This document shows positions 3,274 through 26,337 of a stretch of 64,000 nt of DNA, in pieces. The number at the start of each line of letters is the position of its first letter. The stretch's first letter is position 1. Origin of the DNA: Escherichia coli (GTDB lineage: Bacteria > Pseudomonadota > Gammaproteobacteria > Enterobacterales > Enterobacteriaceae); the NCBI RefSeq assembly GCF_017348835.2, contig NZ_CP072315.1. One strand, written 5' to 3'. A model generated the notes under the pieces. It was not told the origin of the DNA, made no database searches, and was given only the letters and a program-made list of their open reading frames with translations. The position numbers and the translations under genes were made by a program.

Positions 3274-5664
3274 TTATGTTTGAGGGAATTCTATAGCAAA
3301 TGTGGCCGTGCCAGATTGACCACTTACAGCGGGAGTAACGGGATACGTGCGCTCTTCACCATTACCAAGATCCAGTGACAGCGATTTAGTTTCACCAGGC
3401 TGGACCGTAACTCCGGCAACCGTAACGCCGAACTGGGCATTTTTCTGAACAGTCAGGGTTCCGTTTAACTGTCCGGTAATGATAGAACCGTCCTGACGCC
3501 GCAACACACTGGTTCGGATGATGGCCAGCGGCGTGTTGTCCGTTGCTTTCAGTGCTACGGCTGTGGCCAGCGTCTTGAGATTATCCAGCATAATCAGATT
3601 CGCAGGCTGGTAGGTAAAATTAAGCGTTTTAGTGGTCCGGTTACCTGATTCGTCAATAGCCAGTGCCTCCAGATGATACATCTGTCCCGATTCGTCAGTG
3701 TTGGGGAAGATTCTGGGGTATTCCGGAATAAAGACATCCTTGGATAACGGCGTGAATGCCAGGGTGACCTTTTCAGAGTTAGGTCCACCAGCGAGCTGAA
3801 GCGATGTCAGGGAAGCATCCCCAGAGGCATCAGTAACGCTTATGCGAAGGTTCTCAAGCCCTTTAACCAGTTTTCCTTCTGCGTCTGCGCCATTAAAACT
3901 GAACGCGATAACCGGAAGCGTTGAGTCAATTTTCAGCGGTGCATTAAGCGTTTTGGTTCCGGTGTTTCCAACAAGATCCGTGGCAGAGACGCTAACCACC
4001 GTATAATCCCCGTCCGGTAGACCAGCGTATGAGAAGGTGGCGTTTTTGGTTTTATAATCGCTTTCACTGACGGTCACAGGCTTCAGCGTGAAAGGTTCCC
4101 CCCGGGCATTTTTAAGGGTGGCTTCGAAAACTTTGGTATCCCAGTAGCTGATGTTCCAGGCGTTGACGCGATCATTATCGGTGGCCGTCATAGTGATTGT
4201 CTTGGAGGCCTTGTTTACCTGAGCGACATTAACCACCGGTGGGTTGTTATCCCAGATAACCGTAAAATTACCAGCAAGCGCATCGAATATGCTGTCACCA
4301 TCTTTTCCCGAGTAAAGGTGCAGATACTCAAATCCTTTGTCACTGGTGTAGTTGAAGTTAACCGTCATCTCGCATGAACTTTGTCCGATAGGTATAGTGC
4401 AGAACCAGGCTGCATTTTTTACCGTTCTGAACTTTTGCACGTATGGTCGGGGTTCAGCGGTTACCTTTATGCGGCTAATGGTGGCGGTTTTAACGCTGAT
4501 TGAGGCCTGAGTTAACCACTCACTGGTATCACTCCGGTACATCTCTTTAGCCACTATCTTCGGGGCTATTTCCATCGCCGGGGCTGGAGTGAAGTTGAGG
4601 GAGTTATGATGAATTCGTCTTACTCCTCCTGCCAGAGTCTGGAATTCATGATAAGTATCCCCCACATTGGGATATATGTATTTGAAAGTATAAATATTAT
4701 AAGTGCTATCGGACGTCTGGAAATTCGAGTCCGCCCAGCCATATTTGGAACCGTTAACAGCAGTAAAGTCACTTTTTTTCCTTAATACCCGTACGGAAAT
4801 AGGGTTCTGGAAGACGGTCATGCCAGACTGATAAGTGACCCATGATCCGGTAGTGGCGTCCTGCACCTGGATGATATCGTCAGGCTTAACCCGATCAATT
4901 ACGCTTCGGCGGCTTAGTTCGATCCTGTTTCCCGCTTTGTCATAAAGGTAGATCCCCACTTTATATTCAGAGCGGTTTTCCGGTGCCAGGGCATTGCTGC
5001 TTGCGTCGGCGACTTGAACGGTTACGCTACCTTCCACTGTATTAATTTCCGCTGGCTTTTTACGCTCCACTCCAGCGGCATCGGTTATGAAATATTCAGC
5101 ATTAGCAAGCCCGGAACCTTTATCACTCAGTCCATTAAAGACCAGTGCCTGGACGCTGGCGTACTGCATACCGGCTGGTACTGAAGTGAAGATCGCTTCG
5201 CTGCCAAAGTTCCACCCGTTTCTCGTATAACTTATGGTACCCGTTGCCGGAGGCGTTCGGTCAATTGCAAGCGGGTAATCCTGCCGGGAGACCTCCTTCC
5301 CTTGCAAGTCGGTAATCACCTCTCTGAGGGTGAAGCTATCTTCTCCCATCGCTGGTACGGTCAGAGTCTTGCCGTAATAATCAAAGCCTGTCGAAGATGT
5401 GGTACGGTCATCTACGGTAACCAGGCTGCTTTTCGTGCTCCAGATGAGGCTCCCGTCACTTTTCAGCAGACTGAGCGTAATATAACGGTCCAGACCGGAA
5501 ATAACGGCAACGTCAAAGCTCGTTACCGGATTAATCCATACGGATGCAGGCGATACGGTCTTTTTAACGTTCAGGGTATCTTTAAAGCTGAATTCTGCGA
5601 TTTCAGCGGAAGCTCCTGCGCTGAAACCTGCAAATGCAATAAGCAGGGCTAGTTTGATTTTCAT
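3274..5664 (-). CDS. large secreted Ig-like/adhesin-like protein, ~800-aa paralog 1
   Basis: Start moved to the Met preceded by AGGAGA RBS (track start 5691); signal peptide MKIKLALLIAFAGFSAGASA; shares CxIPxGxxSC motif and C-terminal GLENLRI..LAGGP..NFTYQPANL module with ORFs at 9285 and 17587. Confidence 0.7.
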   Translation of the reverse strand: MKIKLALLIAFAGFSAGASAEIAEFSFKDTLNVKKTVSPASVWINPVTSFDVAVISGLDRYITLSLLKSDGSLIWSTKSSLVTVDDRTTSSTGFDYYGKTLTVPAMGEDSFTLREVITDLQGKEVSRQDYPLAIDRTPPATGTISYTRNGWNFGSEAIFTSVPAGMQYASVQALVFNGLSDKGSGLANAEYFITDAAGVERKKPAEINTVEGSVTVQVADASSNALAPENRSEYKVGIYLYDKAGNRIELSRRSVIDRVKPDDIIQVQDATTGSWVTYQSGMTVFQNPISVRVLRKKSDFTAVNGSKYGWADSNFQTSDSTYNIYTFKYIYPNVGDTYHEFQTLAGGVRRIHHNSLNFTPAPAMEIAPKIVAKEMYRSDTSEWLTQASISVKTATISRIKVTAEPRPYVQKFRTVKNAAWFCTIPIGQSSCEMTVNFNYTSDKGFEYLHLYSGKDGDSIFDALAGNFTVIWDNNPPVVNVAQVNKASKTITMTATDNDRVNAWNISYWDTKVFEATLKNARGEPFTLKPVTVSESDYKTKNATFSYAGLPDGDYTVVSVSATDLVGNTGTKTLNAPLKIDSTLPVIAFSFNGADAEGKLVKGLENLRISVTDASGDASLTSLQLAGGPNSEKVTLAFTPLSKDVFIPEYPRIFPNTDESGQMYHLEALAIDESGNRTTKTLNFTYQPANLIMLDNLKTLATAVALKATDNTPLAIIRTSVLRRQDGSIITGQLNGTLTVQKNAQFGVTVAGVTVQPGETKSLSLDLGNGEERTYPVTPAVSGQSGTATFAIEFPQT
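4765..4775. promoter_or_regulatory. palindrome site AAAGTCACTTT (dispersed family)
   Basis: 11-bp core palindrome read directly, inside Ig-like gene 1. Confidence 0.3.
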
Positions 5665-6224
5665 GGGTTGTCTCCTGATCAGGTTCCCCATGATACTTTT
5701 TCAGTGTTCGAGATCTTTTCGGGAAAATAGCTAATTTTAATGTTTTTCTTTTCTGCCCGGCGGGACCTGTTTTGTTCCATTTTTATCAGTGAATGTAATG
5801 AGACCGATTCGTCCACTGTTAACAGTGTAAAAGCGAGGTTGAAAGCCAGCTTTGAGAAGGTTTTCAATAGCTGAAAAAAAATCTTTTTTGAGCATTGGTT
5901 TCAAGATGGTTTTCCTTTTATGCCCGGTGCCGCCGGGACGGTGGCATTAAATATACGCCATGTAAGTAAATTAATTTTTACCCATTTGATTGTCAATACA
6001 AACAAAAAATAAACCATGTTTATTATTTTACCAGCGATGCTATTTTAAAGTCCGTCTAAAATAAAAAACCAAAAAGTTAAATTTGAAGCCATCCTTCCTA
6101 AATTCATTTCTTGCGCATATTAGCCCCTGCTTTAAGTATATAATTTTTGAAAAAGTTGTCTGGAGGTTATTAGCTCGTGCATCTGGATTGTTAATATAAA
6201 GCCAACACAGAAAAGGAAAACAAA

Positions 6225-6989
6225 ATGTATAAATTAGTATCTCCTCGTGAACTGACTGAGATTATTACCGGTTTACTGCTTAAACCTGAACTCCTTGGTG
6301 AGCTGGACTCACCAGAAAAGCATCGGATGTTTATGGCAGATTTAGGCCGGGTGGTGGCAGAACATTGTGGAGGTCTGGTAAACAGCGTCGTCTTGCCAGG
6401 AGCTGAAGTTACAGTGCCGGATGGGTTACCGCTTAACGGCCAGCCAGTACGTTATCTCGGAATCAAAGAGAGCATCCCTCACCTCCTTGTAGAGCCTGAT
6501 GCTTCCTTACCTTCGCTCGCTAAAAACGTCTGGATGTATGCAGATCCTGAAGGCTGGAAAGAACATTTTGGAGCTGAGGAAGACTGCCTTACTCATGAAA
6601 TGATGCAGCTGTTCCGTAAAGGTATCCAGGCTCTTCAGAAGGAGCATGATACCCCTGAAATTAGCCTCACACTTCAGGACTGGCGCCTGGAGGAGGAAAC
6701 ACTGAGAGAAGAGGACAGTCAGGCCTATCAGGTCAGCGTTACCGGCCAACATAACATCCACTGTGAAGTTGTTAACAAGGAAGGTAACCCCTGTTTTGGT
6801 GTCATGTTCGAAATCGATCAGGGTGTGCCTGCCTTACACATCAACACCGGCGGGGATATGTTGCTCCACATTCATTGCGCCCATAACGGACTCGTTCTGA
6901 CCCCTGATGCAAGCGGTCAGCGATTTGAGAAGGCTCCCGTTGACCGCTTCGCTTATAACAGCCCATCCCTGCTGTTGTCTGCCGACTAA
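6225..6989 (+). CDS. hypothetical protein (254 aa)
   Basis: Complete ORF after a long AT-rich intergenic region; no motif recognised. Confidence 0.5.
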   Translation: MYKLVSPRELTEIITGLLLKPELLGELDSPEKHRMFMADLGRVVAEHCGGLVNSVVLPGAEVTVPDGLPLNGQPVRYLGIKESIPHLLVEPDASLPSLAKNVWMYADPEGWKEHFGAEEDCLTHEMMQLFRKGIQALQKEHDTPEISLTLQDWRLEEETLREEDSQAYQVSVTGQHNIHCEVVNKEGNPCFGVMFEIDQGVPALHINTGGDMLLHIHCAHNGLVLTPDASGQRFEKAPVDRFAYNSPSLLLSAD

Positions 6990-7069
6990 CCAAGGCCAAA
7001 TCTGAATTGTCCTGTTTAAGTAACCAACCCGCTGCCGCCAGGCGGGTAAATCCTCTTAATGGAGTTTTA

Positions 7070-7831
7070 ATGCAAATCTCAACTGAAGTTCTGAACGTCT
7101 TATCTCGCTGCCGTGCTGAAGGGAACTTTCTTTTCCTGGCCGACCAGCTCGACCGCAGCATTTATGTTAAGACAAACAAAGTGCTGGAAGCTGCCGGTGG
7201 CAAATGGAACCGAAAAGAGCAGGCACATATTTTTACGGCGGATGCAGCTGAGCGTATCGAGCAAATCATTCTGACAGGTTCGGTCGACATCCCACGTGAT
7301 TTGTTCAATTTCTTCCCTACCCCTGAGAATTTAGTCACAGATATGGTTCTACGCGCTGAACCAGCTGCCGGGGAACGTGTTCTGGAGCCTGAGTTTGGTG
7401 ATGGCCGCATTCTGAAAGCCTTAAAACTGGCGGCTCCGGATGCATTGATTACCGGGATCGAATTGAACGATGAGCGATTCCTTGCAGTGAAGAACGATAG
7501 TGTCCTTAGCACAGGGGCCGAGCTGGTGCATACCGACTTTCTTGGGTACCAGCCCGATGAAACTTTTGATGTTATCGTTATGAATCCACCATTCCTTAAA
7601 CGCTCTGACGTTAAACATGTCATGCATGCCATCGCAATGCTCGCTAAGCGAGGTCGCTTACAGGCCATTCTGTCAGCTGGGGTATTGTTCCGGGAAGACA
7701 CACTGACAAAAGCGCTCAGGGAGCGAGTCAAACAACTTGGCGGACAAATTTCGCCTCTTCCGGATGATACATTTAGGGAGTCCGGAACAAAGGTCAAAAC
7801 AGCCCGCCTTGAAATTGATCTTCGCCGCTAA
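7070..7831 (+). CDS. orphan SAM-dependent N6-adenine methyltransferase (NPPF type)
   Basis: Motif I LEPEFGDGRIL and motif IV VIVMNPPF; start set at the ATG with GGAG RBS 5 nt upstream (track start 7007); no adjacent restriction endonuclease. Confidence 0.65.
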   Translation: MQISTEVLNVLSRCRAEGNFLFLADQLDRSIYVKTNKVLEAAGGKWNRKEQAHIFTADAAERIEQIILTGSVDIPRDLFNFFPTPENLVTDMVLRAEPAAGERVLEPEFGDGRILKALKLAAPDALITGIELNDERFLAVKNDSVLSTGAELVHTDFLGYQPDETFDVIVMNPPFLKRSDVKHVMHAIAMLAKRGRLQAILSAGVLFREDTLTKALRERVKQLGGQISPLPDDTFRESGTKVKTARLEIDLRR

Positions 7832-7924
7832 CTGACAAGCAACCGGAAAGAAATCTTAATACGAGTAGCCGGTTAAAGTTACCTGACCGGCTTAACTGAC
7901 TAAATCAATAAAGAGTGAACAGAA

Positions 7925-8188
7925 ATGACGCATACTGCCGTTTCTCAGGCTAATAGTGCTTTGCAGCTACCCACGCTGGAGCATGTCTACGCACTTCTGA
8001 AAGCAAATTGTAAACCTGACCGCTTTGACGGGCGTGACGGACCCGTGTGGGGCCAGGAATACTCGTGGAATCTGGCAAAAGATCGCTTACAGGATCTGGA
8101 GAAATACGGTAAGGCATATGTCTCCCGTCATGAAGACCGTATGGGGGAAGGATTTAGTTTTGGTCCTGACCTGTTAATTATTCGCTAA
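7925..8188 (+). CDS. hypothetical protein (87 aa)
   Basis: Small complete ORF co-oriented with neighbours; weak RBS. Confidence 0.4.
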   Translation: MTHTAVSQANSALQLPTLEHVYALLKANCKPDRFDGRDGPVWGQEYSWNLAKDRLQDLEKYGKAYVSRHEDRMGEGFSFGPDLLIIR

Positions 8189-8208
8189 CGCTCTTAAGGC
8201 CTGATGAT

Positions 8209-8820
8209 ATGGTAAGCACAACTGGAAAAAATATGTTTTCAAAGCCTATGACCACTTTCACACCAGAACGTATTGAACAAATTTTGGAATTTTCCGAGGG
8301 TAGTAACCCAAGCGAAGCAATGAGTCTTAGAGCTGACGAAGTTGCTGTACTGGCACGTATTGGAAAGGCAGTTATGTCGATTGCGCCTGTTTATCAGTGC
8401 GAGTTTTGCCACCATGACGCAACCGGGCAACTTCAGTGGCACTGGGAAGATGTGAACAAAGCTTTTTATGATAAATACGATCCAGACAGACGCGGAAGAC
8501 GTCGAATCCTCTATACCGCCCCGCCGATGCCTTTAGTTTCGGCTGACCTGCTTAACATGGCTTCATCTGCTATTGAAGACTTGCTCACTAACAAAGACAG
8601 AAGTGGTGCGGGAATGTGGAATGACATTCCAGAACAGCTACGACGCGCAGCAGAACTGGTAATGGATAATAGCCGGGCCGCTGAAATAGAAGCGATGCTG
8701 ATGCGTCTTTATGTAGAATGTGACACCGGTGAGCGCAGAGGCAACGGCAGTCAATCTGGCGTAGCAATGCCTTCGTGGCAAACCGTTGAAGAGGCACGTG
8801 TGTTGCTGGGGGTGAAATGA
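8209..8820 (+). CDS. hypothetical protein (203 aa)
   Basis: Complete ORF, co-oriented; no motif recognised; alternative start at Met9. Confidence 0.45.
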   Translation: MVSTTGKNMFSKPMTTFTPERIEQILEFSEGSNPSEAMSLRADEVAVLARIGKAVMSIAPVYQCEFCHHDATGQLQWHWEDVNKAFYDKYDPDRRGRRRILYTAPPMPLVSADLLNMASSAIEDLLTNKDRSGAGMWNDIPEQLRRAAELVMDNSRAAEIEAMLMRLYVECDTGERRGNGSQSGVAMPSWQTVEEARVLLGVK

Positions 8821-9284
8821 TGCAGTTCTCGCCAGGGCAGTTTGTAATTCACAACAAGAAGCGCCTTGCGGAACGAAGGTAGACGTACTGACTGAGGTTC
8901 ACTCCCCTCTCGACTGGTGGCGTAATACCGCCAGGTTTTGATTCATATATGCCGTCCGTTAACGCATTTATATCTGTCATACCTAATTTATCCTGATTCT
9001 TTTTTACACAAAGTAAAAGCATCACTTAATGCGATATGTGGATGCCGATAGTTTCAGGCTAATGTTATAAGTTTTGCAATCGTTGCCAGTTTGGATACCA
9101 CAGCAATGTCAGATGTAATTCCAAAAAGAAAGATTTACGTCCTGAACGCACAATAAGGTTTGTCGAAAGGCAAATTATAGATTTGTAATTTCGAGCACCA
9201 TATGGAGAAGTTTTTTATACTTTTACGAACATAGTGACCTTTAGGAAAAGCTTAAAATAACACCAAACCTAAAGGGGAATAAGA

Positions 9285-11705
9285 ATGAAACATCTCGCTT
9301 TTATTACTGCTGTAGCCGGACTCGGTATGTCTGTTCAGGCCCCAGCTCAGATATATGAATCGGCCTTTAAGGACACGAACGGTATTGAGATCCACGCCCC
9401 GTCTTCTCGTCTTATGCTTAATCCGGCATCACCGGTAACTTTGACACTTATTTCAGGTCTTGATCGTTTCGTTAATGTCAAAGTCACGAAAGACACTGGA
9501 ACTGTCATTCTTAATACTACGACTACACGGACGGGTGTATCAGACCGACTAACAGCTGCTGACGGTAGTGAGTTCTACGGCAAAAAAGTAACTTTGCCTG
9601 CTTTGGGTGAAGGCAAATTTGTCGTTCAGATAAACGTGTTAGATCTCAATCAGAAGCCTGTAGCGACCTATAACTATAACTGGCTAATTGATGTCACCCC
9701 TCCAGCGGCAAATGCTCTTACCGCTAATACTGGTTCTGGCTCTACCGCTGGTGACGTGTGGAAGCTTGGATTAGAGGCAACGGGGCAGTATGACTTCACC
9801 TCTTCGGGCGTAAGTGATGCAAATGGTATTGATAAGGGCCTAATATATATTTACAGGCAGGACGGTAGCCTCTACAGCACTACACAGATGCAGTATGACG
9901 TATCCGGCCAAAAGATGTACCACACTTACTCTAAGAATTCAGTTAAGGGAACCGGAATACCAGACAGCAACCTGGATGAAGACTTTACTGCAAAAGTTGT
10001 TATCTTCGATAACGCAGGTAATAGCCGAACGCTGCCAACTCAAAAATTTCGCTACGACAACACGCTGGGTGAGATGACACTGTGGGCCGTTCATGATCCA
10101 AATACGTCTTCCAGCGTCGTACCCGGGGTTTCTAATTATCCGGCTTACAAAGCCGGTATGGTCGTTAACGAAAACCCTATTCGATTAGTCTACCGGATCC
10201 CAAAATCTAACTACCGTGCTTATTCAGAAGGTGGGCTTCAGTTCATCAATCAATATTCCGCCCCCAAAGAGATAGCTGTAGACAGCACTTATGCTTATGT
10301 TGAAATGACTCTTCCCTATGGCTCAATTAATGGGGATATGGCTCGTATGGCGAACTTTGGCCAGTGGGGAGGGTATTATCCGTCATACAGCCTCGTTCTA
10401 AACCCATCTGCAAACCAAACGCCTGCATTTGCGGGTACCTGGGTAGATTTCCTCGATGATAAGGGGAACTGGGTTAAGTGGAAGGATTTTGAGAGTGTGG
10501 CTTCATCACGACTGCCAATTAAAATTTCCCGACTTCGTTTTAACGTTGAAGCCCGGCCCTTTGCACAGGAGATCGGCGGTAAGGCGACCTGCACCATTCC
10601 GGCAGGAAAAACCTCGTGTGAAGCGCCTGAGACGTTTGATATGGCCTTGGGTACCCAGGGCTACAATAGAATCCTTTACTTCGTTCGCAGCATCAGCAAT
10701 CCCATTTTGCGGTCTGAGCAATGGATTATGACACGCTGGAACAATAAACAACTGCCGGTAATAAACTCGATATCATATGACGAGACTAACAAGCAGCTGG
10801 ATGTACTGGCGTCACTTGAAGGCGATGGTAACTGGTTCGACTCGGTCTCATTGAGGGAATTTTATCTTTCCGATAAGAACACCGGTACCCGGATGTCACC
10901 AACAGGCGTAATCAAATCTCGTATCTCAGGTAACTACACGATTGCTTATGATTTATCCCGTCAGTCTGAAGGAAAATACAACGTTGAGGTCAACATCAGG
11001 GACTTCTTCCAGAACCAGACCAATAAAACTTTCGGAGAAATTGCTCTGGATAACACTCCTCCGACAGTGGCCATAACATTCGACGGAAAGCCGGTAAAAG
11101 ACGATACGGTAGTGTACGGCCTGGAGAACCTCAGGATCGCTCTGGCAGATAATCTGACAACCCCGAGGATAACCCGTCTTCAGCTCGTAGGTGGCCCCAC
11201 AGCTGATAACGTTGAGCTTACGTGGTCACCGGCAGGCAAAGATACATACATGCCTGAGTATCCGAGGCTGTTCCCAAATTTCGAACCATCTGAAAATTAT
11301 TCAATTAGCGTAACAGTTGCCGATAGTCAGTCGAATACCAAAACCTATACTCAGAAGTTCAGTTATCTACCGAATAACCTTGTGCAGTTACATAATCTAC
11401 GCACATTGTCGGTCAGTTCACCTCTCAAAACGACAGATGGCGTACCACTTGCGTACCTGTCCACTAACGTTCTGCGTAAGACAAATGGAGAAATTGCTAA
11501 AGGGGTCCAGAACGCAACGCTGACTGTGCGGAAGGATGCAGCCTTCGGTATTAAATTTAATGGGGCACAGGCGGCTCCAGGCGAGTCAGTTGAGGTGCAA
11601 ATAGATATGGGCCAGGGGGATAATCTTCTGTTACCCGTTTATCCTTCCGAAAATGGGAAAGTTGGCACCTCAGAATTCATGATTCAGATCGACGAGTTGA
11701 AGTAA
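9285..11705 (+). CDS. large secreted Ig-like/adhesin-like protein, ~800-aa paralog 2
   Basis: AGGGGAA RBS; signal peptide MKHLAFITAVAGLGMSVQA; conserved ISGLDRF, ATCTIPAGKTSC and C-terminal GLENLRI..LVGGP..FSYLPNNLVQL module shared with paralogs. Confidence 0.75.
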   Translation: MKHLAFITAVAGLGMSVQAPAQIYESAFKDTNGIEIHAPSSRLMLNPASPVTLTLISGLDRFVNVKVTKDTGTVILNTTTTRTGVSDRLTAADGSEFYGKKVTLPALGEGKFVVQINVLDLNQKPVATYNYNWLIDVTPPAANALTANTGSGSTAGDVWKLGLEATGQYDFTSSGVSDANGIDKGLIYIYRQDGSLYSTTQMQYDVSGQKMYHTYSKNSVKGTGIPDSNLDEDFTAKVVIFDNAGNSRTLPTQKFRYDNTLGEMTLWAVHDPNTSSSVVPGVSNYPAYKAGMVVNENPIRLVYRIPKSNYRAYSEGGLQFINQYSAPKEIAVDSTYAYVEMTLPYGSINGDMARMANFGQWGGYYPSYSLVLNPSANQTPAFAGTWVDFLDDKGNWVKWKDFESVASSRLPIKISRLRFNVEARPFAQEIGGKATCTIPAGKTSCEAPETFDMALGTQGYNRILYFVRSISNPILRSEQWIMTRWNNKQLPVINSISYDETNKQLDVLASLEGDGNWFDSVSLREFYLSDKNTGTRMSPTGVIKSRISGNYTIAYDLSRQSEGKYNVEVNIRDFFQNQTNKTFGEIALDNTPPTVAITFDGKPVKDDTVVYGLENLRIALADNLTTPRITRLQLVGGPTADNVELTWSPAGKDTYMPEYPRLFPNFEPSENYSISVTVADSQSNTKTYTQKFSYLPNNLVQLHNLRTLSVSSPLKTTDGVPLAYLSTNVLRKTNGEIAKGVQNATLTVRKDAAFGIKFNGAQAAPGESVEVQIDMGQGDNLLLPVYPSENGKVGTSEFMIQIDELK
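9584..9595. promoter_or_regulatory. palindrome site AAAAGTAACTTT (dispersed family)
   Basis: Read directly; the same site plus flank (AAAAGTWACTTTGCCTGCT) recurs at 34713. Confidence 0.3.
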
Positions 11706-11807
11706 CTACCCGGAGCCGACAGTAAAACTGACGGCTTCAATTTTACTGCCCTCCTCGACTCCGATCAGCCAGTACGTCTTCAGAGATTCGCAAGGAAGAA
11801 CCGAAAG

Positions 11808-11819
11808 AAAAGTTACTTT
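11808..11819. promoter_or_regulatory. palindrome site AAAAGTTACTTT (dispersed family)
   Basis: Read directly, about 100 bp downstream of Ig-like gene 2. Confidence 0.3.
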
Positions 11820-11859
11820 AATCGTACGTTTCCAGCGATGCTTTCAAAAGACAATGCAT

Positions 11860-12275
11860 ACTCGTTGATTACGACAATGGGAGTGAGTGTCGAACCCCTT
11901 GAGTAAGGATACCTGGTAAATATACAGCCCCGGGGATTCTCTTCCTTCAACCGGGGATGACAACGGGAGTGAGTCCGGCAACTCACACCTGTTGTCACTT
12001 CTCTGACATATCGTCATACGAGCTTACTCAAGCGCATCCACAAAGATGGGATCGTTTTGAATCTAAACTGGTACTGGTTAGCCAGTCACTTGCATCTACT
12101 CCCCCGTCGATATTTAAGTGACAATTGTAGTGATCTGCAATACTGGTGTCTCAGAAACACTGACGACGGTAGAGACTCAATACCCTAACCCCTGACAACA
12201 GAAGTGAGCTTAGAGGTGTTACGCTGCTGTCACCTAATGCTTGGGAATTGCCTGACTCACAACCATTGTCATCCG
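11860..12275. repeat. iteron-like inverted-repeat units (left remnant of iteron array split by the IS)
   Basis: Units such as TGACAACGGGAGTGAG...CTCACACCTGTTGTCA match the repeat family at 13990-15320. Confidence 0.5.
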
Positions 12276-13985
12276 GAGCTACTGATTAACGTTGAACCAC
12301 GGCAGCCTGGCGGCTGCAAATTGAAAACCGCCCCGGTTCGTCCTGTTGTTGCCGCACGCCCCGCAGAATATGTATGCTCTGAGGACCTGTTTTATTAAGG
12401 ACTCATCCCCTTATGTTGACCCGCAAAAGTATCGATACAGTTCTGCTCTCTGTTGGTGCTGAGAAGCTCTCACAACGAGAATGGGACTGGATGAAAATGC
12501 TCAAACCCATGGACCCACCACCTGCGATGGTGACGACCTCCATCCTGAAGCGCCGTGGCGATACAGCAGCCCTTACCCTGCTACAGGATACCGGGGTTTA
12601 ATCCATCCTCATGTTGTCCGGTTTTACTCCCCGCCCTCTGAAACGTCTGTTCACAGCCAACCAGTGCTGGACGTCCTTCCTGGATGCGGGCGGTCTGCGC
12701 GATATCGAGGTTGAAGCCGTCACCAAAATGCTGGCCTGCGGCACACGGATACTGGGTGTAAAAGAGTTCGGGTGTGATAACCCGGACTGTCAGCACGTAA
12801 AGTACCTGACCAACTCATGCGGCAGCCGTGCCTGCCCGTCCTGCGGAAAGAAGGCCACAGACCTGTGGACAGCAACACAGCTGAATCGTCTTCCTGACTG
12901 CGACTGGGTACATCTGGTCTTCACCCTGCCGGACACGCTGTGGCCGGTGTTCGAAAGCAACCGCTGGCTGCTGAATGACGTGTGCCGTCTGGCGGTGGAG
13001 AATCTGCTGTATGCCGCCCGAAAACGGGGGCTGGAACCCGGTATCTTCTGCGCCATCCACACGTATGGCCGTCGTCTCAACTGGCATCCGCATGTACATG
13101 TGTCTGTAACCTGTGGAGGTCTGAATAAGCATGGTCAGTGGAAAAAGCTGAGCTTCCTGAAAGACGCGATGCGTTCACGGTGGATGTGGAATATGCGGCA
13201 GCTGCTTCTGAAAGCGTGGTCAGAGGGGATGGCAATGCCGGAGTCGTTGTCACATATCACGACGGAATCACAGTGGAGAAGCCTGGTGCTGAAATCCGGC
13301 GGAAAATACTGGCATGTGTACATGTCGAAGAAGACAGCCGGAGGGCGGAATACGGCACGCTACCTGGGTCGTTATCTGAAGAAGCCACCAATAGCGGCTT
13401 CCCGACTGGCTCATTACAACGGAGGGGCAAGCCTGAGCTTCCGTTACCTGGACCACAAAACGGGAGAAACGGCGACGGAAACGCTGACACAGCGTGAGCT
13501 GGTCGCGAGGCTGAAACAGCACATCCCGGAGAAGTTTTTTAAGATGGTGAGGTACTTCGGGTTCCTTGCCAACCGTGTGTGTGGAGAGAAGCTGCCGCAG
13601 GTGTACCGTGCACTGGGGATGGATAAACCGGAACCAGTGGCGAAAGTGTGCTATGCACAAATGGTGAAACAGTTCCTGAGTCGTGACCCGTTCGAATGCG
13701 TGCTGTGTGGCTGCCGGATGGTATACCGCCGGGCCATTGCGGGGCTGAATGTATCAGGGCTGAAGAAAAACGCGCGGGATATCAGTCTACTGAGGTATAT
13801 GCCGGCCTGACACAGGCTAAGTGTGCCCGGGAATCGGTGAAAGTATAAAAAACAGCCTGTTACGGTATAAAAATCGACCATACAGAGAGGGAAACCACCG
13901 GAGTGGTGGGAAAAGCAGAAAGGCTCACGTGGCATAAGGCGTGGACAATGGTATCGACTGGTTTTTCAATTTCCTATACGTGAAC
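12276..13985 (+). mobile_element. IS91-family insertion sequence (about 1.7 kb, IS1294-like size); boundaries approximate
   Basis: Carries the HUH-Y2 transposase gene; flanked on both sides by the same iteron family; hairpin CCACCGGAGTGGTGG near the right end; GAACC at both junctions. Confidence 0.55.
12611..13810 (+). CDS. tnpA: IS91-family rolling-circle (HUH, Y2) transposase
   Basis: N-terminal zinc-binding cysteines (CPSCGKK), HUH motif WHPHVHVSV, paired tyrosines RYLGRYL. Confidence 0.8.
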   Translation: MLSGFTPRPLKRLFTANQCWTSFLDAGGLRDIEVEAVTKMLACGTRILGVKEFGCDNPDCQHVKYLTNSCGSRACPSCGKKATDLWTATQLNRLPDCDWVHLVFTLPDTLWPVFESNRWLLNDVCRLAVENLLYAARKRGLEPGIFCAIHTYGRRLNWHPHVHVSVTCGGLNKHGQWKKLSFLKDAMRSRWMWNMRQLLLKAWSEGMAMPESLSHITTESQWRSLVLKSGGKYWHVYMSKKTAGGRNTARYLGRYLKKPPIAASRLAHYNGGASLSFRYLDHKTGETATETLTQRELVARLKQHIPEKFFKMVRYFGFLANRVCGEKLPQVYRALGMDKPEPVAKVCYAQMVKQFLSRDPFECVLCGCRMVYRRAIAGLNVSGLKKNARDISLLRYMPA

Positions 13986-13989
13986 CGCT

Positions 13990-15320
13990 GGACTTTAATG
14001 ACAGTGGTAGTGATGGATAGGCTCATTTCCATTGTCGTCATTTTATCGGACAAGCCTCTTCGTCCTACAGGTTTAAGCTGACAATGGTAGTGATTGGATG
14101 ATCTCACTACTGTTGTCACTCAGTTCTTTGAGCGGACCCTTCCCTCGGTTGGTCGGCATTAACAACGGTAGTGACTCGATTGGCTCACTGCCATTGTCAT
14201 CGTGTAAATGACGTACCTTATCAGCTCAGCTGAAAGCAATGACAACGGTAGTGACTCTAATTGCTCACTGCCATTGTCGTCGTGTCTATTGAGAGCCTTA
14301 TCAGTGCACCTGAAAAGCAATGACAACGGTAGTGATTCTAATGGCTCACTACCGTTGTCACCGTGTGTATTGAGAGGATGGTCCACTTAACTGGACGTAT
14401 ATGACAATGGTAGTGACTTTAATAGCTCACTACCATTGTCGGTGTGTGAATTGAGAGGATGAGCAGCTCAGCTGTACGTCCATGACAATGGTAATGACTT
14501 AATGAGCTCACTACCGTTGTCACCCTGTTAATTAAGAGGCTCATCTGCTCTTCTGGAAGGCTATGACAACGGAAGTGACTTGCTGGGCTCACTGCCATTG
14601 TCGCCGTATGAATTGAGAGGATCATCCGCTCTTCTGGATGGCAATGACAACGGTAATGACTTAATAGGCTCACTACCATTGTCACCCTGTGAATTGAGAG
14701 GATGATCTGCTTAACCAGACGGCCATGACAACGGTAGTGACTTTCTGGGCTCAATACCGTTGTCACCCTGTGAGTTAAGAGGTTGACCCGCTCTACTGGA
14801 CGGCCATGACAACGGTAGTCACTTTCTGGGCTCACTACCGTTGTCGCCATATAGAATGAGAGGAGCATCAGCTCAACTGAACGGCAATGACTACAGTAAT
14901 GAGCTGGATGAAGCATAACCATTGACATCTGGCCCAACCGGAAGCCGTATTCGCCAATCCAATCGAGATTCACAATGGCCGTGACTCGCCGCATTAAGTT
15001 CCGGTGTCCTCCTAAAGCTGAACGCACACTCGGAGGACAATGACAATGCCAGTAAGGTACACATCATTACCATTGTCACTATAGCTACCAGAGAAGCCGG
15101 GATTTGAATGTCGATGGTAGTGAGTGGGTCAACTCACTGCCATTGTCACCCCGTTACGATATTTTCCGTTGGATGTACTGGCCAATGAAGTAAAGCGTAG
15201 AAACCGGGTGTTAACAGGTGACTCAGGAGAAAGCGTTGAATTTCGCAATCTCGATCTACATAGGGTGGTAGAGAACAATGACAACGGTAATGACTTTTGA
15301 CTCATTACCGTTGACGTGAA
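13990..15320. repeat. tandem array of about 16 units of ~80 bp, each containing a 15-bp-arm palindrome (TGACAACGGTAGTGA / TCACTACCGTTGTCA); putative Rep-binding iteron / incompatibility array
   Basis: Period about 80 bp read directly; inter-palindrome segments are also conserved (CCTGTGAATTGAGAGGATGA); adjacent to the rep gene. Confidence 0.65.
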
Positions 15321-15390
15321 AGAGCGGGCTGGGACTAACGAAAATCGAAGAAGTAATTTAGCACCCGGAGCCTAAACCGCCGGGTTAACT

Positions 15391-16479
15391 TTAGCTGGCG
15401 TTGCTGTTCTTTTTCTGGCTTCGAAGACTACGAATATAGCGCAGTTCTTCAGCGGTTAAATCATGGACGGTAAGAACATCATCGCCGTCAATCGGGTCAG
15501 CTGGTGGGCATAACTCACCTTCTAAAACAGAAGACCCTGAGTTCTCTTCTTCATCTTCAACCACTTCTAAAGGAGGCTGAGTATTGTTCAAATTCAGATC
15601 GGGATCCCGCTTATGAATCTGGAAGTATACTTTTCCGTCTTTCTTAATTTCGGTGTACTTGAGGTATCCTATCGATGCCAACTCTTCAAGAGCCTTTCTC
15701 ACGGTAGCATTCTGACTATTTGCTCGTGTTTTGAGGTTCAGACGATTTTTCAGCCGAGTAAGGGATATCGGTATAGGATTTGGCGGTAATGACTCTATGA
15801 ACGTATAGAGAGCCTGGGCGCTTTCCTTCTTGGCCAACTCCTTAATTGCCTTCAGCTGCATCAAAACCTTATGATCGTATTGATAGAGCTCGAAAATCTT
15901 AGGATCAACCTGAAGGACAACCTGATCTGATTCCGGGTCTAACAGGGCAGACTGTACCAGATGCGTTGTATAGACTTTGGACGAGTTATTACTGGTGAAC
16001 GACAAGGTAACGGATGCTAACCTGCGTAAGGAGGCGTCTATACGTTTTCTGGACGCTGTAGATGAGCGATAATTTTCAGGCGTACATAGCTTGAGGAATT
16101 CAGTGAATTTTAAGCTTATCGTGTCATTGTTAATCGGATGATTGGCATAGGTTCGAATGATGCCCATCCACGTCTTAAAATCTACTGACATATTAAGACG
16201 CTCACCGACAATTGAAATATTGGTGAACCCCTCGCTCTCCATTAAAGAGAGCGTCTGTAACTCTTTCGTTGCGTCAAAGCCAACCGTTTTATATTCCCGA
16301 TTTTGACGCCCCACACTCTTTGGTGATGGGACGAACAGCCCGAGCCGCATCAAAGCAATAGACTGCACCGTACGGTTGCTGTTAGGACGCAAAATGATGT
16401 CTTTACCTGATTCTTTCTCTCTAACAGAGAAAGCCCTGGTGACCAGGTCCTGCTGCTCAGTATCTTTCTCTTTAGTCAT
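15391..16479 (-). CDS. iteron-type plasmid replication initiator (RepA/RepE-like, IncHI/RepFIB-type)
   Basis: 362-aa protein paralogous to the ORF at 29890 (shared LRLxxF, TDFKxWxGII, YDHKxL, ESIGYL motifs); flanked by iterons on both sides. Confidence 0.7.
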   Translation of the reverse strand: MTKEKDTEQQDLVTRAFSVREKESGKDIILRPNSNRTVQSIALMRLGLFVPSPKSVGRQNREYKTVGFDATKELQTLSLMESEGFTNISIVGERLNMSVDFKTWMGIIRTYANHPINNDTISLKFTEFLKLCTPENYRSSTASRKRIDASLRRLASVTLSFTSNNSSKVYTTHLVQSALLDPESDQVVLQVDPKIFELYQYDHKVLMQLKAIKELAKKESAQALYTFIESLPPNPIPISLTRLKNRLNLKTRANSQNATVRKALEELASIGYLKYTEIKKDGKVYFQIHKRDPDLNLNNTQPPLEVVEDEEENSGSSVLEGELCPPADPIDGDDVLTVHDLTAEELRYIRSLRSQKKNSNAS

Positions 16480-17340
16480 AATAAGTTATCACTGAATGTG
16501 TAAACAGATTGGTGAATAGTAAGCCCCAGCGAACTCTATGTCACTGGATGGATCATTGTGATGATCCATATCTGTGCATAAGTTCTACCTAAAAAAACGA
16601 CTCCACTCATTAAAACTTGGCAAAAACTCTTTGCATACAATGACCTGCAACTCTTATCAACAACGGATCAGATCAAGTTAAAAAGATCTAATGAAAAGTC
16701 ACTACTATTGTCGCTCTGATCACTACTGATGTCAAAAAACTCATTACCAACGTTATAATAATCACTACTAATGTCAAAATAATCACTACTGTTGTCACTG
16801 ATCACGTCTCAGGCCTTGTGCCGTCTGGCCTGGAGGCAGCGGGGATCTCTTTTGATCTATCAGGAACACTAAGGTACTAATTATTGGAACTACCTTGTGG
16901 AAAATGGGGATAAATAAATGCTTAGTTCTTATACAGGTCTCAACTTGCCTCCCTGATAAAAACTGTCGTCAAAGCTAAATCACAGCCACAGGCATTTTCG
17001 GTGGATAAATTTTTGAGAAATAGAAGCATACATGCAGACTCGTGTCGCAAGTAATTGAAAGTAATGATTTATTTAAATAATGCGAGTCACCTTACCTCAC
17101 AGTGGAAGTTTAAGTCTAACCTCACTACCATTGTCACTTAAAATCATTACCAACGTCGAAATAGTCTCTACCATTGTCTTTTAAGTCACTCCCGTTGTCA
17201 CTTATGTCGCTACTGTTGTCAGTGACAATGCTCCAGCCCAGTAACCATGCGGCCTACAGCGTACCGGGATCTTCTTTGTACTCTCTGGCACCTTTGGGAT
17301 CATTTATTGGATCTACATGAGGGATAAAATCTTTTGACGA
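16480..17340. other. putative origin of replication (oriV) for the rep gene at 15391-16479
   Basis: Two clusters of five ~21-bp direct iterons (TCACTACnnTTGTCA; 16690-16800 and 17100-17230), each followed by a GATC-rich segment; AT-rich. Confidence 0.5.
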
Positions 17341-17448
17341 TTTCGTAGTGCAGTTATACCAGCGACTTAGCAAGACAAAAGCTGCAATTTAGTGACGAGT
17401 TACTAGTCTGCCCAACAAGAGCAATGCAGAGAAGATATGTGGTGAAAT

Positions 17449-17482
17449 GACCATGGTAGTGAGTCTAATCACTACCATGGTC
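17449..17482. repeat. perfect 14-bp-arm inverted repeat of iteron-like half-sites (GACCATGGTAGTGA-6nt-TCACTACCATGGTC)
   Basis: Read directly; candidate Rep-dimer operator or terminator for the upstream Ig-like gene. Confidence 0.45.
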
Positions 17483-17586
17483 CGCAGTAAGCGTTACTTA
17501 CGCAATGAACGTCGGACTGATTTGCAACAACATGGGCTACGGCGCATCAGAAGGCGGCCGTTGTGCTTCAGCAAAACAGCCCTGCT

Positions 17587-20043
17587 TTATTTTAATTCTT
17601 CAATGTTAATCATGAACTCAGATCTGCCAGTAAGGCCGGATACAGCAGGGAAAATAGGAAAGCTACGGCTGTCCCCGAGCCCCAAATCCAGTTGAAGCTC
17701 TTTGCTTTCACCTGGCATCGCAGAAACGCCATTTACAGTCACGCCGAATGCAGCGTCCTTACGGACAGTAAGCACTGCGTCCTGAAGCCCTGTAGCGATT
17801 GAACCATCCTTTTTACGCAGCTGGCTGGCATACAGAACAGCCAGAGCAGTATTGTCAGATGTTTTGAGAGAAGCATTGACAGCTAAGGTTTTCAGATTCT
17901 CTAGCCTGACGAGATTGTTTGGAAGGTAGTTAAATTCGACTGAGCTTTCTTTAACGTTGTTCATCTCATCTTTGGCCTGAACTGTGAGAGTGTATGTTTC
18001 GCCTTCATTAAGAGACGGAAAGATCTTGGGATAATTAGGTGCATACAGGTTGTTTCCCAGATTCACCCAAGACAATTCCACCGCATCAGAAACAGGGCCA
18101 CCGCGAAGAGTCATACGGCTTAAGGATGGTTTAGTTAGAGCATCGGTGAGCTGTATACGGACGTTCTCCAGCCCATATACTGTTACGTTTTTGCTGATCG
18201 GTTTTCCTTCGTAGCTAATACTTACAGATGGTGCTGTATTATCAACGACAACTGTTTGATAAGGGAGGTTACCGGTATTGTTGAATGTATCTTGGGCATT
18301 AATCACCACGTTATAACTGCCTTCTGGTACCTCTTTCATGTTGAACTCATACGTGTAGTTCCCAGACGCCATATTTCTACCTGTTTGTTTGCCGGTTACG
18401 CTTATTTCTGCGTTGTTACGGTTTTTATCTGACAACCAAACTCGATTTACATAAACATGGTCGAAATATGAACCATCTCCAGGTTGATTCACGTAAACCT
18501 GGAGAATGTTGGTGGTTTCATTGTAATCAAATCCAGTGACGGAGGGACCCAGTGTATGCCAGGCTATATTCTCCCATATAGGGGCAAAGAAGGTTGCTTC
18601 GGTGGTTGACCTTACTTCATAGCCACTATGAAGATAACCGGTAGTGCCATTTATAATATCCTGGGGCAAAGAGACGGTACAGGTTGTTGAGCCAGCTGGA
18701 ATACTGCATGTTGCTCCGCCAGTGATTTTTTGATCATATGGCCTGGCCTGTACATTGAATCGGATATTAGTAAGTTTTATAGGCATATCAGATGCCTTGA
18801 ACAGGTTCCAGTTTACGCTGTTGAACCATGTTCCATCAGCCTTTTGTCGTTCTATGGGTGAACTTCCCCAAGCCGGACTCTTTACAGAGGCAGGATCCCA
18901 GTTGAGCCAGCTGGCATACTGACCAAGATCTCCTCCAGACCATTGATATGTATTCACAGGTCTATAGTAGTTTCCATCTAAGGCACCCTGTGGCAGCTTA
19001 ACTTCCACGTAGACATAGGTGGCATCTTCGGAAAGGACCTGTACTCCGCCATAGTTATTGGTAATGCTCATGCCACCATTTCGATATGGCTTCCAGTTAG
19101 TTCTTGGGATACGTATAACCAACTTGTAGGGGTTTTCCAGCACTGTAAGGCCTCGTTTAAACGGGACGTATCCCGAAGAAATGCCGGGTACAACACTGGT
19201 GCTTACACGTGAGTCATGAACTGCAAATGGCGTAAATTCTCCCATTTGATCGTCATATAAAAACCGCTGGGGAGGAATGTTAAGCGTATTTCCTGCCAGG
19301 TCCGTAACGATGAAATTGAAGGTGAATTCTTCATCAAGATCACTTGAGGGCATGCCAGCCTGGGTGTTCATATCTTTAATCCACGGATAGAACGCACGTT
19401 TATTGGCTGTGTCATAACTCAGGTTATTGTCGGAGACCACAGAACCATTACTTCGTTTAATGACAAGACGGATCTTGTCAATTCCACTAGCATCCTCAAT
19501 ACCGTCTGCAAATATAGAAAACTGGCCACTACCGCCTCGGCCCAACTCCCAAAGTGGCCCAGAAAGTACCATGTCGTAACCTGCGTTTTGACTCGGATAA
19601 ATACTCTTATAGCGTGGAGGAGTTGTATCAACGATGAAATGATAAGTAGATGTGCTCACTACAGTCTGGCGAATATCCAGAGTTTCATTGACTACAGTAA
19701 AGGTCCCTTCTCCGAGCGCCGGTAGAACCATATCCTTTCCATAGTATTCTGTTCCATCGGCAGCAACGATACGATCTGCAACGCTCGTTTTGGTCGAGAC
19801 GGAGGAATACATAACCTTTTTATCGCTGTCTCGTGTGACCGTCACTCGCTCGTACCGATCAAGACCCGATATCAAGTTCAGAGTCAAAACACCAGCGGGA
19901 TTAAGATATGTTTGTGTTGCAGGTTTGATATTCCGAACAGCCTTATTGGTATCTGTAAATGAGTAGCTAAATACCTGAGCATGTGCCGAAGATACAGTAG
20001 CAAGGGCAGTTGCAACCATGCAGCCAATTAGAGTTTTACGCAT
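17587..20043 (-). CDS. large secreted Ig-like/adhesin-like protein, ~800-aa paralog 3
   Basis: GGAG RBS; signal peptide MRKTLIGCMVATALATVSSAHA; ATCSIPAGSTTC and C-terminal GLENVRI..LRGGP..FNYLPNNLVRLENLKTLAV module shared with paralogs. Confidence 0.75.
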   Translation of the reverse strand: MRKTLIGCMVATALATVSSAHAQVFSYSFTDTNKAVRNIKPATQTYLNPAGVLTLNLISGLDRYERVTVTRDSDKKVMYSSVSTKTSVADRIVAADGTEYYGKDMVLPALGEGTFTVVNETLDIRQTVVSTSTYHFIVDTTPPRYKSIYPSQNAGYDMVLSGPLWELGRGGSGQFSIFADGIEDASGIDKIRLVIKRSNGSVVSDNNLSYDTANKRAFYPWIKDMNTQAGMPSSDLDEEFTFNFIVTDLAGNTLNIPPQRFLYDDQMGEFTPFAVHDSRVSTSVVPGISSGYVPFKRGLTVLENPYKLVIRIPRTNWKPYRNGGMSITNNYGGVQVLSEDATYVYVEVKLPQGALDGNYYRPVNTYQWSGGDLGQYASWLNWDPASVKSPAWGSSPIERQKADGTWFNSVNWNLFKASDMPIKLTNIRFNVQARPYDQKITGGATCSIPAGSTTCTVSLPQDIINGTTGYLHSGYEVRSTTEATFFAPIWENIAWHTLGPSVTGFDYNETTNILQVYVNQPGDGSYFDHVYVNRVWLSDKNRNNAEISVTGKQTGRNMASGNYTYEFNMKEVPEGSYNVVINAQDTFNNTGNLPYQTVVVDNTAPSVSISYEGKPISKNVTVYGLENVRIQLTDALTKPSLSRMTLRGGPVSDAVELSWVNLGNNLYAPNYPKIFPSLNEGETYTLTVQAKDEMNNVKESSVEFNYLPNNLVRLENLKTLAVNASLKTSDNTALAVLYASQLRKKDGSIATGLQDAVLTVRKDAAFGVTVNGVSAMPGESKELQLDLGLGDSRSFPIFPAVSGLTGRSEFMINIEELK

Positions 20044-20198
20044 ATGATGCTCCGGGAATAGGTTATAGCCTTATTCTACGGATTCAGCCTACAAGGTCCG
20101 GTCGGATAAAGTGATAATTTGCCTGTTAAAAGAGACATCAAGTGAGAAAGCAACCAACGTACAGAATGCAAAATGGCGGCAGTGCATCTGGATGACGC

Positions 20199-20211
20199 AA
20201 AAGTAACTTTT
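20199..20211. promoter_or_regulatory. palindrome site AAAAGTAACTTTT (dispersed family)
   Basis: Exact 13-bp palindrome in the divergent promoter region between 20043 and 20416. Confidence 0.4.
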
Positions 20212-20262
20212 TGTATCCACTTTTTTGGATTTTAGCCTTCAAAATGAGTATTCAACCAATCA

Positions 20263-20275
20263 TAAAAGTAACTTT
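20263..20275. promoter_or_regulatory. palindrome site AAAAGTAACTTTT (dispersed family)
   Basis: Second exact copy 64 bp from the previous one in the same intergenic region. Confidence 0.4.
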
Positions 20276-21042: not shown

Positions 21043-21047
21043 AAAAT

Positions 21048-21070: not shown

Positions 21071-21099
21071 ATAAACCTGAGCCACCAATCTAATTAACT

Positions 21100-26329: not shown

Positions 26330-26337
26330 AGTAAATT

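What the first reader, a model, noticed from the sequence alone, without database searches (positions are those of the whole stretch)
3274..20043. Three paralogous ~800-aa secreted Ig-like proteins around the replicon
The ORFs at 3274-5664(-), 9285-11705(+) and 17587-20043(-) each have a signal peptide, a conserved Cys-x(4-6)-IPxGxxSC motif and a near-identical C-terminal module (GLENLRI ... L.GGP ... F.Y.PNNL ... LTV.KDA.FG). Each is preceded by a long AT-rich upstream region. Three diverged copies in 17 kb point to gene-family expansion, perhaps for surface variation or host-range adaptation. From memory, large Ig-like (Big-domain) proteins have been reported as required for conjugation of IncHI plasmids; I cannot verify this without a search, and this paralog family may go beyond what is described.
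Basis: partly seen in the sequence, partly recalled or inferred. Interest (0 to 1): 0.6.

Follow-up and report, generated by a model that had tools for sequence, protein, structure and literature searches.

The report
Three RSP2-type Ig-like genes, IncHI2
An IncHI2 resistance plasmid carries three intact, conserved genes for secreted Ig-like proteins related to RSP2, a known conjugation helper of the sister plasmid R27 that the literature says IncHI2 plasmids lack.

Summary
The window is an IncHI2 plasmid, 100% identical to p2016062-242. ORFs A (3274-5664, -), B (9285-11705, +) and C (17587-20043, -) are full-length paralogues, 29-41% identical. All three have the Pfam architecture DUF4165 + Big_3_2 + Big_3_3 and a Sec-type signal peptide. 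Each mature protein has exactly two cysteines, in a C-x8-C pair. An AlphaFold model of C (pLDDT 91) is a chain of beta-sandwich domains.

They are not a new kind. They belong to the family of R27 RSP2 (R0055, 794 aa). RSP2 is secreted, binds flagella and the conjugative pilus, and raises conjugation about 100-fold in liquid at 25 C. A is the sister of RSP2 (39% identity, bootstrap 100). C has an 82%-identical IncHI1 orthologue that IS30 splits in R27. B's IncHI1 counterpart is a deleted pseudogene.

The triplication therefore predates the IncHI1/IncHI2 split. All three genes are under purifying selection and are present in about 1,050-1,120 PLSDB plasmids. I found no sign of ongoing surface variation.

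What is new is a correction. The 2022 paper states that IncHI2 plasmids lack rsp2, but they carry three homologues. Their role in conjugation is inferred, not shown.

The parts
3274..5664 (-). Paralogue A (796 aa, WP_000694550): the IncHI2 sister of R27 RSP2
   Evidence: Pfam DUF4165 18-136, Big_3_2 138-257, Big_3_3 540-696. 38.7% identical to R27 RSP2 over 788 aa, E 1e-174. The NJ clade (A, RSP2) has bootstrap 100. Present in 1047 PLSDB plasmids.
9285..11705 (+). Paralogue B (806 aa, WP_000681217)
   Evidence: Pfam DUF4165, Big_3_2 and Big_3_3. 41% identical to C. Its IncHI1 counterpart is a pseudogene with aa ~349-607 deleted. Nine synonymous and no non-synonymous differences between IncHI2 sublineages. 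Present in 1112 plasmids.
17587..20043 (-). Paralogue C (818 aa, WP_001572417)
   Evidence: Pfam DUF4165, Big_3_2 and Big_3_3. 82% identical to an intact 818-aa IncHI1 orthologue, with pN 0.108 against pS 0.795. AF2 pLDDT 91, all-beta. Present in 1122 plasmids.
5665..6224 (-). Upstream intergenic region of A (560 bp, GC 0.357); presumed promoter and regulatory region
   Evidence: Composition. The RBS AGGAGA is read directly. The promoter scan was no better than shuffled sequence.
8821..9284 (+). Upstream intergenic region of B (464 bp, GC 0.392)
20044..20415 (-). Upstream intergenic region of C (372 bp, GC 0.379)
54363..58667 (+). RSP (R0009) orthologue, 1434 aa, in Tra2: the partner that RSP2 co-precipitates with and partly depends on for export in R27
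   Evidence: 83.5% identical to R27 RSP over 1428 aa. Shares a ~300-aa core (C-x8-C domain plus Big_3_3) with the A/B/C family, hhalign probability 98%, E 2e-13. It also has a signal peptide.
15391..16479 (-). repHI2 replication initiator, flanked by B and C (context only)
   Evidence: RefSeq annotation. 38-44% identical to the R27 Rep proteins.

Best explanation
A, B and C are the three IncHI2 members of the RSP2 family of plasmid 'Big' proteins. They are ~85-kDa, all-beta, multi-Ig-domain proteins.

Most likely mechanism:
1. The N-terminal signal peptide takes each protein across the inner membrane by Sec.
2. The single C-x8-C pair is oxidised to a disulfide in the periplasm.
3. The protein reaches the cell exterior in a way that depends on the plasmid's own MPF_F type IV secretion and H-pilus apparatus (TrhC, TrhH, TrhA) and on the large partner protein RSP.
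4. Outside, it binds flagella and the conjugative pilus. This lowers motility and stabilises donor-recipient contact, and so raises transfer, above all in liquid at <=30 C.

Shown here: family membership, domain architecture, fold, signal peptides, orthology and paralogy, purifying selection, and co-occurrence with rsp and MOBH/MPF_F transfer genes.

Shown by others, for RSP2 of R27 and for the IncA/C homologue: secretion, TrhC and RSP dependence, binding to flagella and pilus, and the conjugation phenotype.

Inferred: that the IncHI2 copies do the same, and that the signal peptide implies a two-step export route.
For: - Identical Pfam architecture in all three proteins and in RSP2 as published.
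- Full-length similarity to the R27 794-aa, 86.74-kDa protein, which matches published RSP2 in length, mass and map position.
- The (A, RSP2) clade has bootstrap 100.
- The RSP orthologue (83.5%) and the Tra2 genes lie in the same window.
- Every plasmid I examined with a homologue and with relaxase/MPF typing listed in PLSDB types as MOBH/MPF_F.
- 2741 of 3058 plasmids with a tblastn hit are predicted conjugative.
- In IncC and in a Pseudomonas MOBH plasmid, the homologous ~800-aa module is the N-terminus of a giant protein encoded inside the pilus operon, next to the pilin gene traA.
- The IncA/C giant protein with the same three Pfam domains is secreted and is needed for conjugation at 25 C.
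- RSP2 experiments.
- Purifying selection.
- All three genes are retained in about 1,050-1,120 plasmids.
Against: - There are no experimental data for any IncHI2 copy.
- A is only 39% identical to RSP2, while flanking backbone genes are 61-90% identical, so its binding partners may differ.
- R27 conjugates well with its C-type copy split by IS30 and its B-type copy deleted, so B- and C-type proteins are not required for transfer when RSP2 is present.
- The genes lie by the replicon, outside Tra1 and Tra2, unlike the IncC and Pseudomonas homologues.
- The published claim that the T4SS exports these proteins sits uneasily with a classical Sec signal peptide. The route across the outer membrane is unknown.
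Confidence: 0.72

Rival explanations
1. The paralogues are recipient- or host-specificity determinants. Each binds a different surface structure (flagellin type, LPS, outer-membrane protein) on donor or recipient. Keeping three copies would widen the range of hosts between which the plasmid moves efficiently. This would be functionally analogous to PilV shufflon variants of IncI plasmids or TraN variants of F-like plasmids.
For: - Three old, strongly diverged copies (29-41%) are all kept under purifying selection.
- Divergence is greatest in the N-terminal and middle domains and least in the C-terminal ~260 aa. That is the pattern expected for a common anchoring part with different binding parts.
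- IncHI2 plasmids occur in many genera.
- An IncHI1B-type Klebsiella plasmid expanded the family independently to three copies.
Against: - No variation within IncHI2: each gene is >=98.5% identical across about 1,050-1,120 plasmids, with pN/pS <=0.1.
- IncHI1 plasmids, also broad in host range, have lost B and sometimes C.
- No binding data exist.
Confidence: 0.15
2. They are general adhesins or biofilm and surface-colonisation factors that benefit the host cell, unrelated to DNA transfer. Their family link with conjugation would then be incidental.
For: - The fold resembles S-layer proteins and fibrillar adhesins such as SiiE.
- The genes lie outside the Tra regions, next to the replicon.
Against: - Two family members tested experimentally both affect conjugation.
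- Homologues are embedded in pilus operons in IncC and Pseudomonas MOBH plasmids.
- 90% of plasmids carrying a homologue are predicted conjugative.
Confidence: 0.08
3. B and C are functionally redundant leftovers, and only A (the RSP2 counterpart) matters.
For: IncHI1 lost B through an internal deletion and frameshift. R27 lost the C-terminus of C to IS30, yet it transfers normally.
Against: - B has 9 synonymous and 0 non-synonymous changes between IncHI2 sublineages, and C has 9 and 3.
- C compared with its IncHI1 orthologue has pN 0.108 against saturated pS of 0.795.
- Both genes are intact in more than 1,080 plasmids.
This is not the pattern of neutral leftovers.
Confidence: 0.05

Closest known systems
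RSP2 (R0055 / R27_p055) of IncHI1 plasmid R27 (Huttener et al. 2022, mSphere, PMC8730810)
   Same: About the same length (794 against 796-818 aa). Same DUF4165 / Big_3_2 / Big_3_3 architecture, signal peptide, C-x8-C pair and conserved C-terminal module. Encoded between Tra2 and Tra1 near a replicon, on a MOBH/MPF_F plasmid that also encodes RSP. A is its sister, with bootstrap 100.
   Different: Identity is only 39% (A), 32% (B) and 35% (C). There are three intact copies instead of one. A is not in exactly the same slot: it lies on the other side of the hyp254-hyp87 gene block. No experiments exist for the IncHI2 proteins, and the paper states that IncHI2 lacks rsp2.
RSP (R0009), the 155-kDa IncHI conjugal transfer protein (Huttener et al. 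2019, PLoS Genet, PMC6764697)
   Same: Secreted Big protein with a signal peptide. It shares a ~300-aa core (C-x8-C domain plus Big_3_3) with A, B and C (hhalign probability 98%). Its true orthologue is in this window at 54363-58667.
   Different: 1434 aa, with no DUF4165 or Big_3_2 N-terminus. BLASTP similarity to C is only local (E 2e-4). It is encoded inside Tra2. A, B and C are not RSP orthologues.
IncA/C (IncC) giant Big protein (ALG87338.1 of pKAZ3, 1843 aa; WP_000606835 of pNDM-US-2, 1828 aa)
   Same: Its N-terminal ~800 aa are homologous to C over aa 11-812 (32.8%), with the same three Pfam domains. It is secreted and needed for conjugation at 25 C but not at 37 C.
   Different: It carries a ~1000-aa C-terminal extension, is single-copy, and is encoded inside the transfer operon between traA and dsbC-traC. 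Its deletion had no effect on motility.

Membership tests
RSP2 family (DUF4165-Big_3_2-Big_3_3 plasmid Big proteins, type member R27 R0055) | Full-length sequence homology to R27 RSP2 | tested here: met
   A 38.7% over 788 aa (E 1e-174), B 32% over 816 aa (E 9e-107), C 35% over 848 aa (E 4e-114). The R27 protein is 794 aa and 86.74 kDa, matching the published values.
RSP2 family (DUF4165-Big_3_2-Big_3_3 plasmid Big proteins, type member R27 R0055) | Domain architecture: DUF4165 at the N-terminus, then a Big_1/Big_3_2-type domain, then Big_3_3 at ~540-700 | tested here: met
   The boundaries match those published for RSP2 (23-142, 143-254, 537-693).
RSP2 family (DUF4165-Big_3_2-Big_3_3 plasmid Big proteins, type member R27 R0055) | Encoded on a MOBH/MPF_F conjugative plasmid together with rsp | tested here: met
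   PLSDB typing is conjugative, MOBH, MPF_F. The RSP orthologue is 83.5% identical and TrhC 80-87% identical.
RSP2 family (DUF4165-Big_3_2-Big_3_3 plasmid Big proteins, type member R27 R0055) | Secretion to the medium, dependent on TrhC and partly on RSP | not testable with these tools
   Only the signal peptide can be seen. Secretion was shown for RSP2 in R27.
RSP2 family (DUF4165-Big_3_2-Big_3_3 plasmid Big proteins, type member R27 R0055) | Binds flagella and the conjugative pilus; deletion lowers conjugation (~2 log in liquid at 25 C) and raises motility | not testable with these tools
   Shown only for R27 RSP2.
RSP (R0009) orthologues | Full-length homology to the ~1430-aa RSP | tested here: not met
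   Only a local match (BLASTP E 2e-4 over 68 aa; hhalign core RSP 165-499). The real orthologue is the ORF at 54363-58667.
Bacterial Ig-like (Big) fold proteins | Predicted beta-sandwich Ig-like domains | tested here: met
Sec-exported proteins | N-terminal signal peptide with a basic n-region, a hydrophobic core and an AxA-type cleavage site | tested here: met
   By inspection. The AF2 model has a helix at 2-14 and then low confidence at 15-22. No dedicated predictor was available.

The most novel reading that the evidence does not exclude
IncHI-type plasmids ancestrally carry a three-member set of RSP2-type pilus- and flagellum-binding proteins. The set shares a conserved C-terminal anchoring part but has diverged N-terminal and middle domains. 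IncHI2, the main plasmid vehicle of mcr-1, keeps all three because they act non-redundantly, for example by binding different appendages or different recipient surfaces. If so, the published view that IncHI2 lacks rsp2 has hidden three conjugation factors that could also serve as surface antigens.
Probability: 0.25. Interest if true: 0.55.

Novelty: new member of a known kind. Interest (0 to 1): 0.38.

Why it matters
IncHI2 plasmids are major carriers of mcr-1 and other last-line resistance genes. The Barcelona group proposes extracellular plasmid Big proteins (RSP) as vaccine and nanobody targets against such plasmids.

Their papers state that rsp2 is confined to IncHI1. A protein-level comparison shows that IncHI2 has three conserved RSP2 homologues, and that R27 itself holds two decayed ones.

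This changes which genes should be deleted or targeted when IncHI2 transfer is studied. It also explains why a DNA-level BLAST missed them.

It does not reveal a new kind of system.

Tried and rejected
- Promoter and terminator consensus scans of 3000-20600 gave no more sites than shuffled sequence (26 against 25.5), so nothing can be said about regulation.
- NCBIfam has no model for any of the three proteins or for RSP.
- A sequence search of the PDB found no solved relative, only a marginal SiiE BIg match.
- Fold searches gave only generic tandem beta-sandwich matches with low TM-scores. They confirm the fold class but suggest no specific ligand or enzymatic activity.
- dN/dS for C against its IncHI1 orthologue could not be corrected because synonymous sites are saturated (pS 0.795), so I report raw pN and pS.
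- I rejected the idea that A evolves fast through positive selection. The higher divergence of A between IncHI2 sublineages is mostly synonymous (31 of 36 changes), which points to a different recombination history.
- I considered strict positional orthology of A and RSP2 and rejected it. The gene order differs around the hyp254-hyp87 block.
- Literature searches for DUF4165 and for IncHI2 + rsp2 found only the two Barcelona papers (mSphere 2022; bioRxiv 2023/eLife) plus, for DUF4165, one Klebsiella preprint I did not open.

Full report
**What the window is.** Bases 3000-20300 are 100% identical to Salmonella plasmid p2016062-242. PLSDB types that plasmid as IncHI2A, MOBH, MPF_F and conjugative. 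727 plasmid records cover at least 80% of the stretch. RefSeq labels the three ORFs only as 'Ig-like domain-containing protein'. They lie around repHI2 (15391-16479, -).

**Check of the observation.**
- The ORFs are present. A is at 3274-5664 (-); the start at 5664 is backed by an AGGAGA RBS. B is at 9285-11705 (+) and C at 17587-20043 (-).
- They align end to end: A-B 29%, B-C 41%, A-C 29%, with E-values from 3e-83 to 0.
- Each begins with a classical signal peptide.
- Each mature protein has exactly two cysteines, in the motif C-[TS]-IP-x-G-x-[ST]-[ST]-C. The pair is nearly invariant in a 76-member family alignment.
- 'Near-identical C-terminal module' is overstated. Identity is 40-54% in the last 100 aa and 35-44% in Big_3_3, against 7-36% in the middle.
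- 'AT-rich upstream' is true only mildly (GC 0.36-0.39 against 0.43).

**What the proteins are.**
- Pfam finds the same three domains in all of them: DUF4165, Big_3_2 and Big_3_3, with E-values down to 2e-65.
- AlphaFold2 on C with a 76-sequence alignment gives pLDDT 91 and pTM 0.76. The chain is all-beta, with about seven sandwich domains after the signal helix.
- The refutation criterion 'no Ig-like fold' is therefore not met.

**The known relative.** Huttener et al. 2022 (PMC8730810) describe RSP2, the product of R27 gene R0055.
- It is 794 aa and 86.75 kDa, with DUF4165 at 23-142, a Big domain at 143-254 and Big_3 at 537-693.
- It is found in the periplasm and the secretome. Its export needs TrhC and partly needs RSP.
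- It binds flagella and the conjugative pilus. Its deletion lowers R27 transfer about 2 log in liquid at 25 C.
- I located the gene in R27 (NC_002305, 57498-59882). The product is 794 aa and 86.74 kDa.
- A is 38.7% identical to it over 788 aa (E 1e-174). B is 32% and C is 35% identical.

**Orthology and history.** A tblastn of the window's proteins against R27 and the IncHI1 plasmid pSY3626 shows the following.
- C has an 82%-identical, 818-aa orthologue in IncHI1. It is intact in pSY3626. In R27 it is cut by IS30 at about residue 701, with the C-terminal 112 aa left as a separate ORF.
- B corresponds to an R27 pseudogene. Residues 1-262 are 74% identical and 608-806 are 86% identical. Residues ~349-607 are deleted and there is a frameshift.
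- A's best match is RSP2.
- An NJ tree with 200 bootstraps gives (A, RSP2) 100, (C, C') 100 and (B, (C, C')) 91. The three copies of an IncHI1B-type Klebsiella plasmid group together at 100, which indicates a separate expansion.
- The three lineages therefore predate the IncHI1/IncHI2 split.
- Flanking backbone genes are 61-90% identical between the two plasmid groups, RSP is 83.5% and TrhC 80-87%. The A/RSP2 pair is thus unusually diverged. It is also not in exactly the same slot.

**Selection and conservation.**
- C against its IncHI1 orthologue has pN 0.108 and pS 0.795, which is saturated.
- Between two IncHI2 sublineages, A has 31 synonymous and 5 non-synonymous changes, B has 9 and 0, and C has 9 and 3. 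That gives pN/pS of 0.05, 0 and 0.10.
- Gene-by-gene megablast finds A in 1047, B in 1112 and C in 1122 PLSDB plasmids, almost all full-length.
- These are maintained genes, not decaying ones. There is no sign of current diversification.

**The wider family.**
- A profile search of 1.84 billion representatives finds 310 clusters at E<=1e-30. They fall into two size classes: ~800 aa, and ~1830 aa in which the N-terminal 800 aa match.
- The long form is the IncC protein encoded between traA and dsbC-traC. Its pKAZ3 version has the same three Pfam domains, is secreted, and is required for conjugation at 25 C.
- A Pseudomonas MOBH/MPF_F plasmid has a 2427-aa version between traV and traA.
- A metagenomic contig repeats the IncHI layout Dam, ParB-like, DUF4942, Ig, Ig, Rep.
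- 2741 of 3058 plasmids with a hit are predicted conjugative.
- RSP itself shares a ~300-aa core with the family, covering the C-x8-C domain and Big_3_3 (hhalign probability 98%, E 2e-13).

[quoted passage not shown] A megablast of rsp2 indeed hits only IncHI1 and a few other plasmids, at 85-100% identity. At 39% protein identity the IncHI2 genes are invisible to a DNA search. The paper does not mention signal peptides, paralogues or the IS30-split copy in R27. Searches for DUF4165 and for IncHI2 + rsp2 returned only the 2022 paper, its 2023-24 follow-up and one Klebsiella preprint I did not open; the follow-up's IncHI2 and rsp2 passages do not describe IncHI2 homologues.

**Mechanism, with its status.**
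- Shown here: family membership, fold, signal peptide, conserved cysteine pair, co-occurrence with rsp and the MOBH/MPF_F apparatus, and purifying selection.
- Shown by others for RSP2 and the IncA/C homologue: secretion, dependence on TrhC and RSP, binding to flagella and pilus, and promotion of conjugation at low temperature.
- Inferred: the IncHI2 proteins do likewise, through Sec export, disulfide formation and then pilus-apparatus-dependent release.
- Caveat: R27 transfers well without functional B- and C-type copies, so those two are not essential when RSP2 is present.

**Verdict.** The genes are new members of a known, experimentally characterised family, not a new system. The useful result is the correction that IncHI2 carries three RSP2 homologues, and that R27 has two decayed ones. 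Interest is modest.

Noticed in passing
window 12611-13810 (+), with a small ORF at about 12413-12601: An IS91-family transposase lies between paralogue B and repHI2. Most IncHI2 plasmids match the 17.3-kb query at 90% coverage in two pieces. A likely reason is that they lack this insertion, but I did not map the gap.
   Followed up: no
L003 (R27 NC_002305) 18926-22605 and 25633-27248: R27 itself holds two decayed RSP2-family genes. The C-type copy is split by IS30 at about residue 701. The B-type copy has aa ~349-607 deleted plus a frameshift. The RSP2 papers do not mention either.
   Followed up: yes
window 54363-58667 (+): The RSP orthologue (1434 aa, 83.5% identical to R27 RSP) has a clear Sec-type signal peptide (MRKSGLGLALLFSLIAPIKAVYA|E). 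It shares the C-x8-C domain and Big_3_3 core with A, B and C. The published model of direct T4SS export does not discuss signal peptides.
   Followed up: partly
window 3274-5664 compared with L007: Between the two IncHI2 sublineages, A has about 3.4-fold higher synonymous divergence (pS 0.054) than B and C (0.016 each). This suggests that this segment has a different recombination history from the neighbouring backbone.
   Followed up: partly
window 20416-26329; L003 14008-18480; L010 2773-7090: The block Dam methyltransferase, ParB-like DNA-binding protein, DUF4942 protein and a small ORF sits directly next to the C-type Ig gene. This holds in IncHI2, IncHI1 and an unrelated metagenomic contig. 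The reason for the linkage is unknown.
   Followed up: no
L005 (K. pneumoniae pIncHIB) 14983-17421, 27094-29499, 29635-32040: An IncHI1B-type Klebsiella plasmid has three family members (812, 801 and 801 aa). Two are tandem and 70% identical to each other. The three cluster together in the tree, which indicates a separate expansion.
   Followed up: partly
window 2023-2319 (-) and 833-1780 (-): A RelE/ParE-family toxin gene (90% identical to the R27 copy) and a flavin reductase gene (63%) lie just downstream of paralogue A. The order matches the corresponding R27 region.
   Followed up: no
H123-H133, E. coli plasmids of about 100-210 kb: An rsp2 allele of about 85% nucleotide identity occurs on smaller E. 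coli plasmids. This is probably the 'IncN' group mentioned in the 2022 paper. Other large plasmids match only 36% of rsp2, at 90% identity, which suggests mosaic genes.
   Followed up: no
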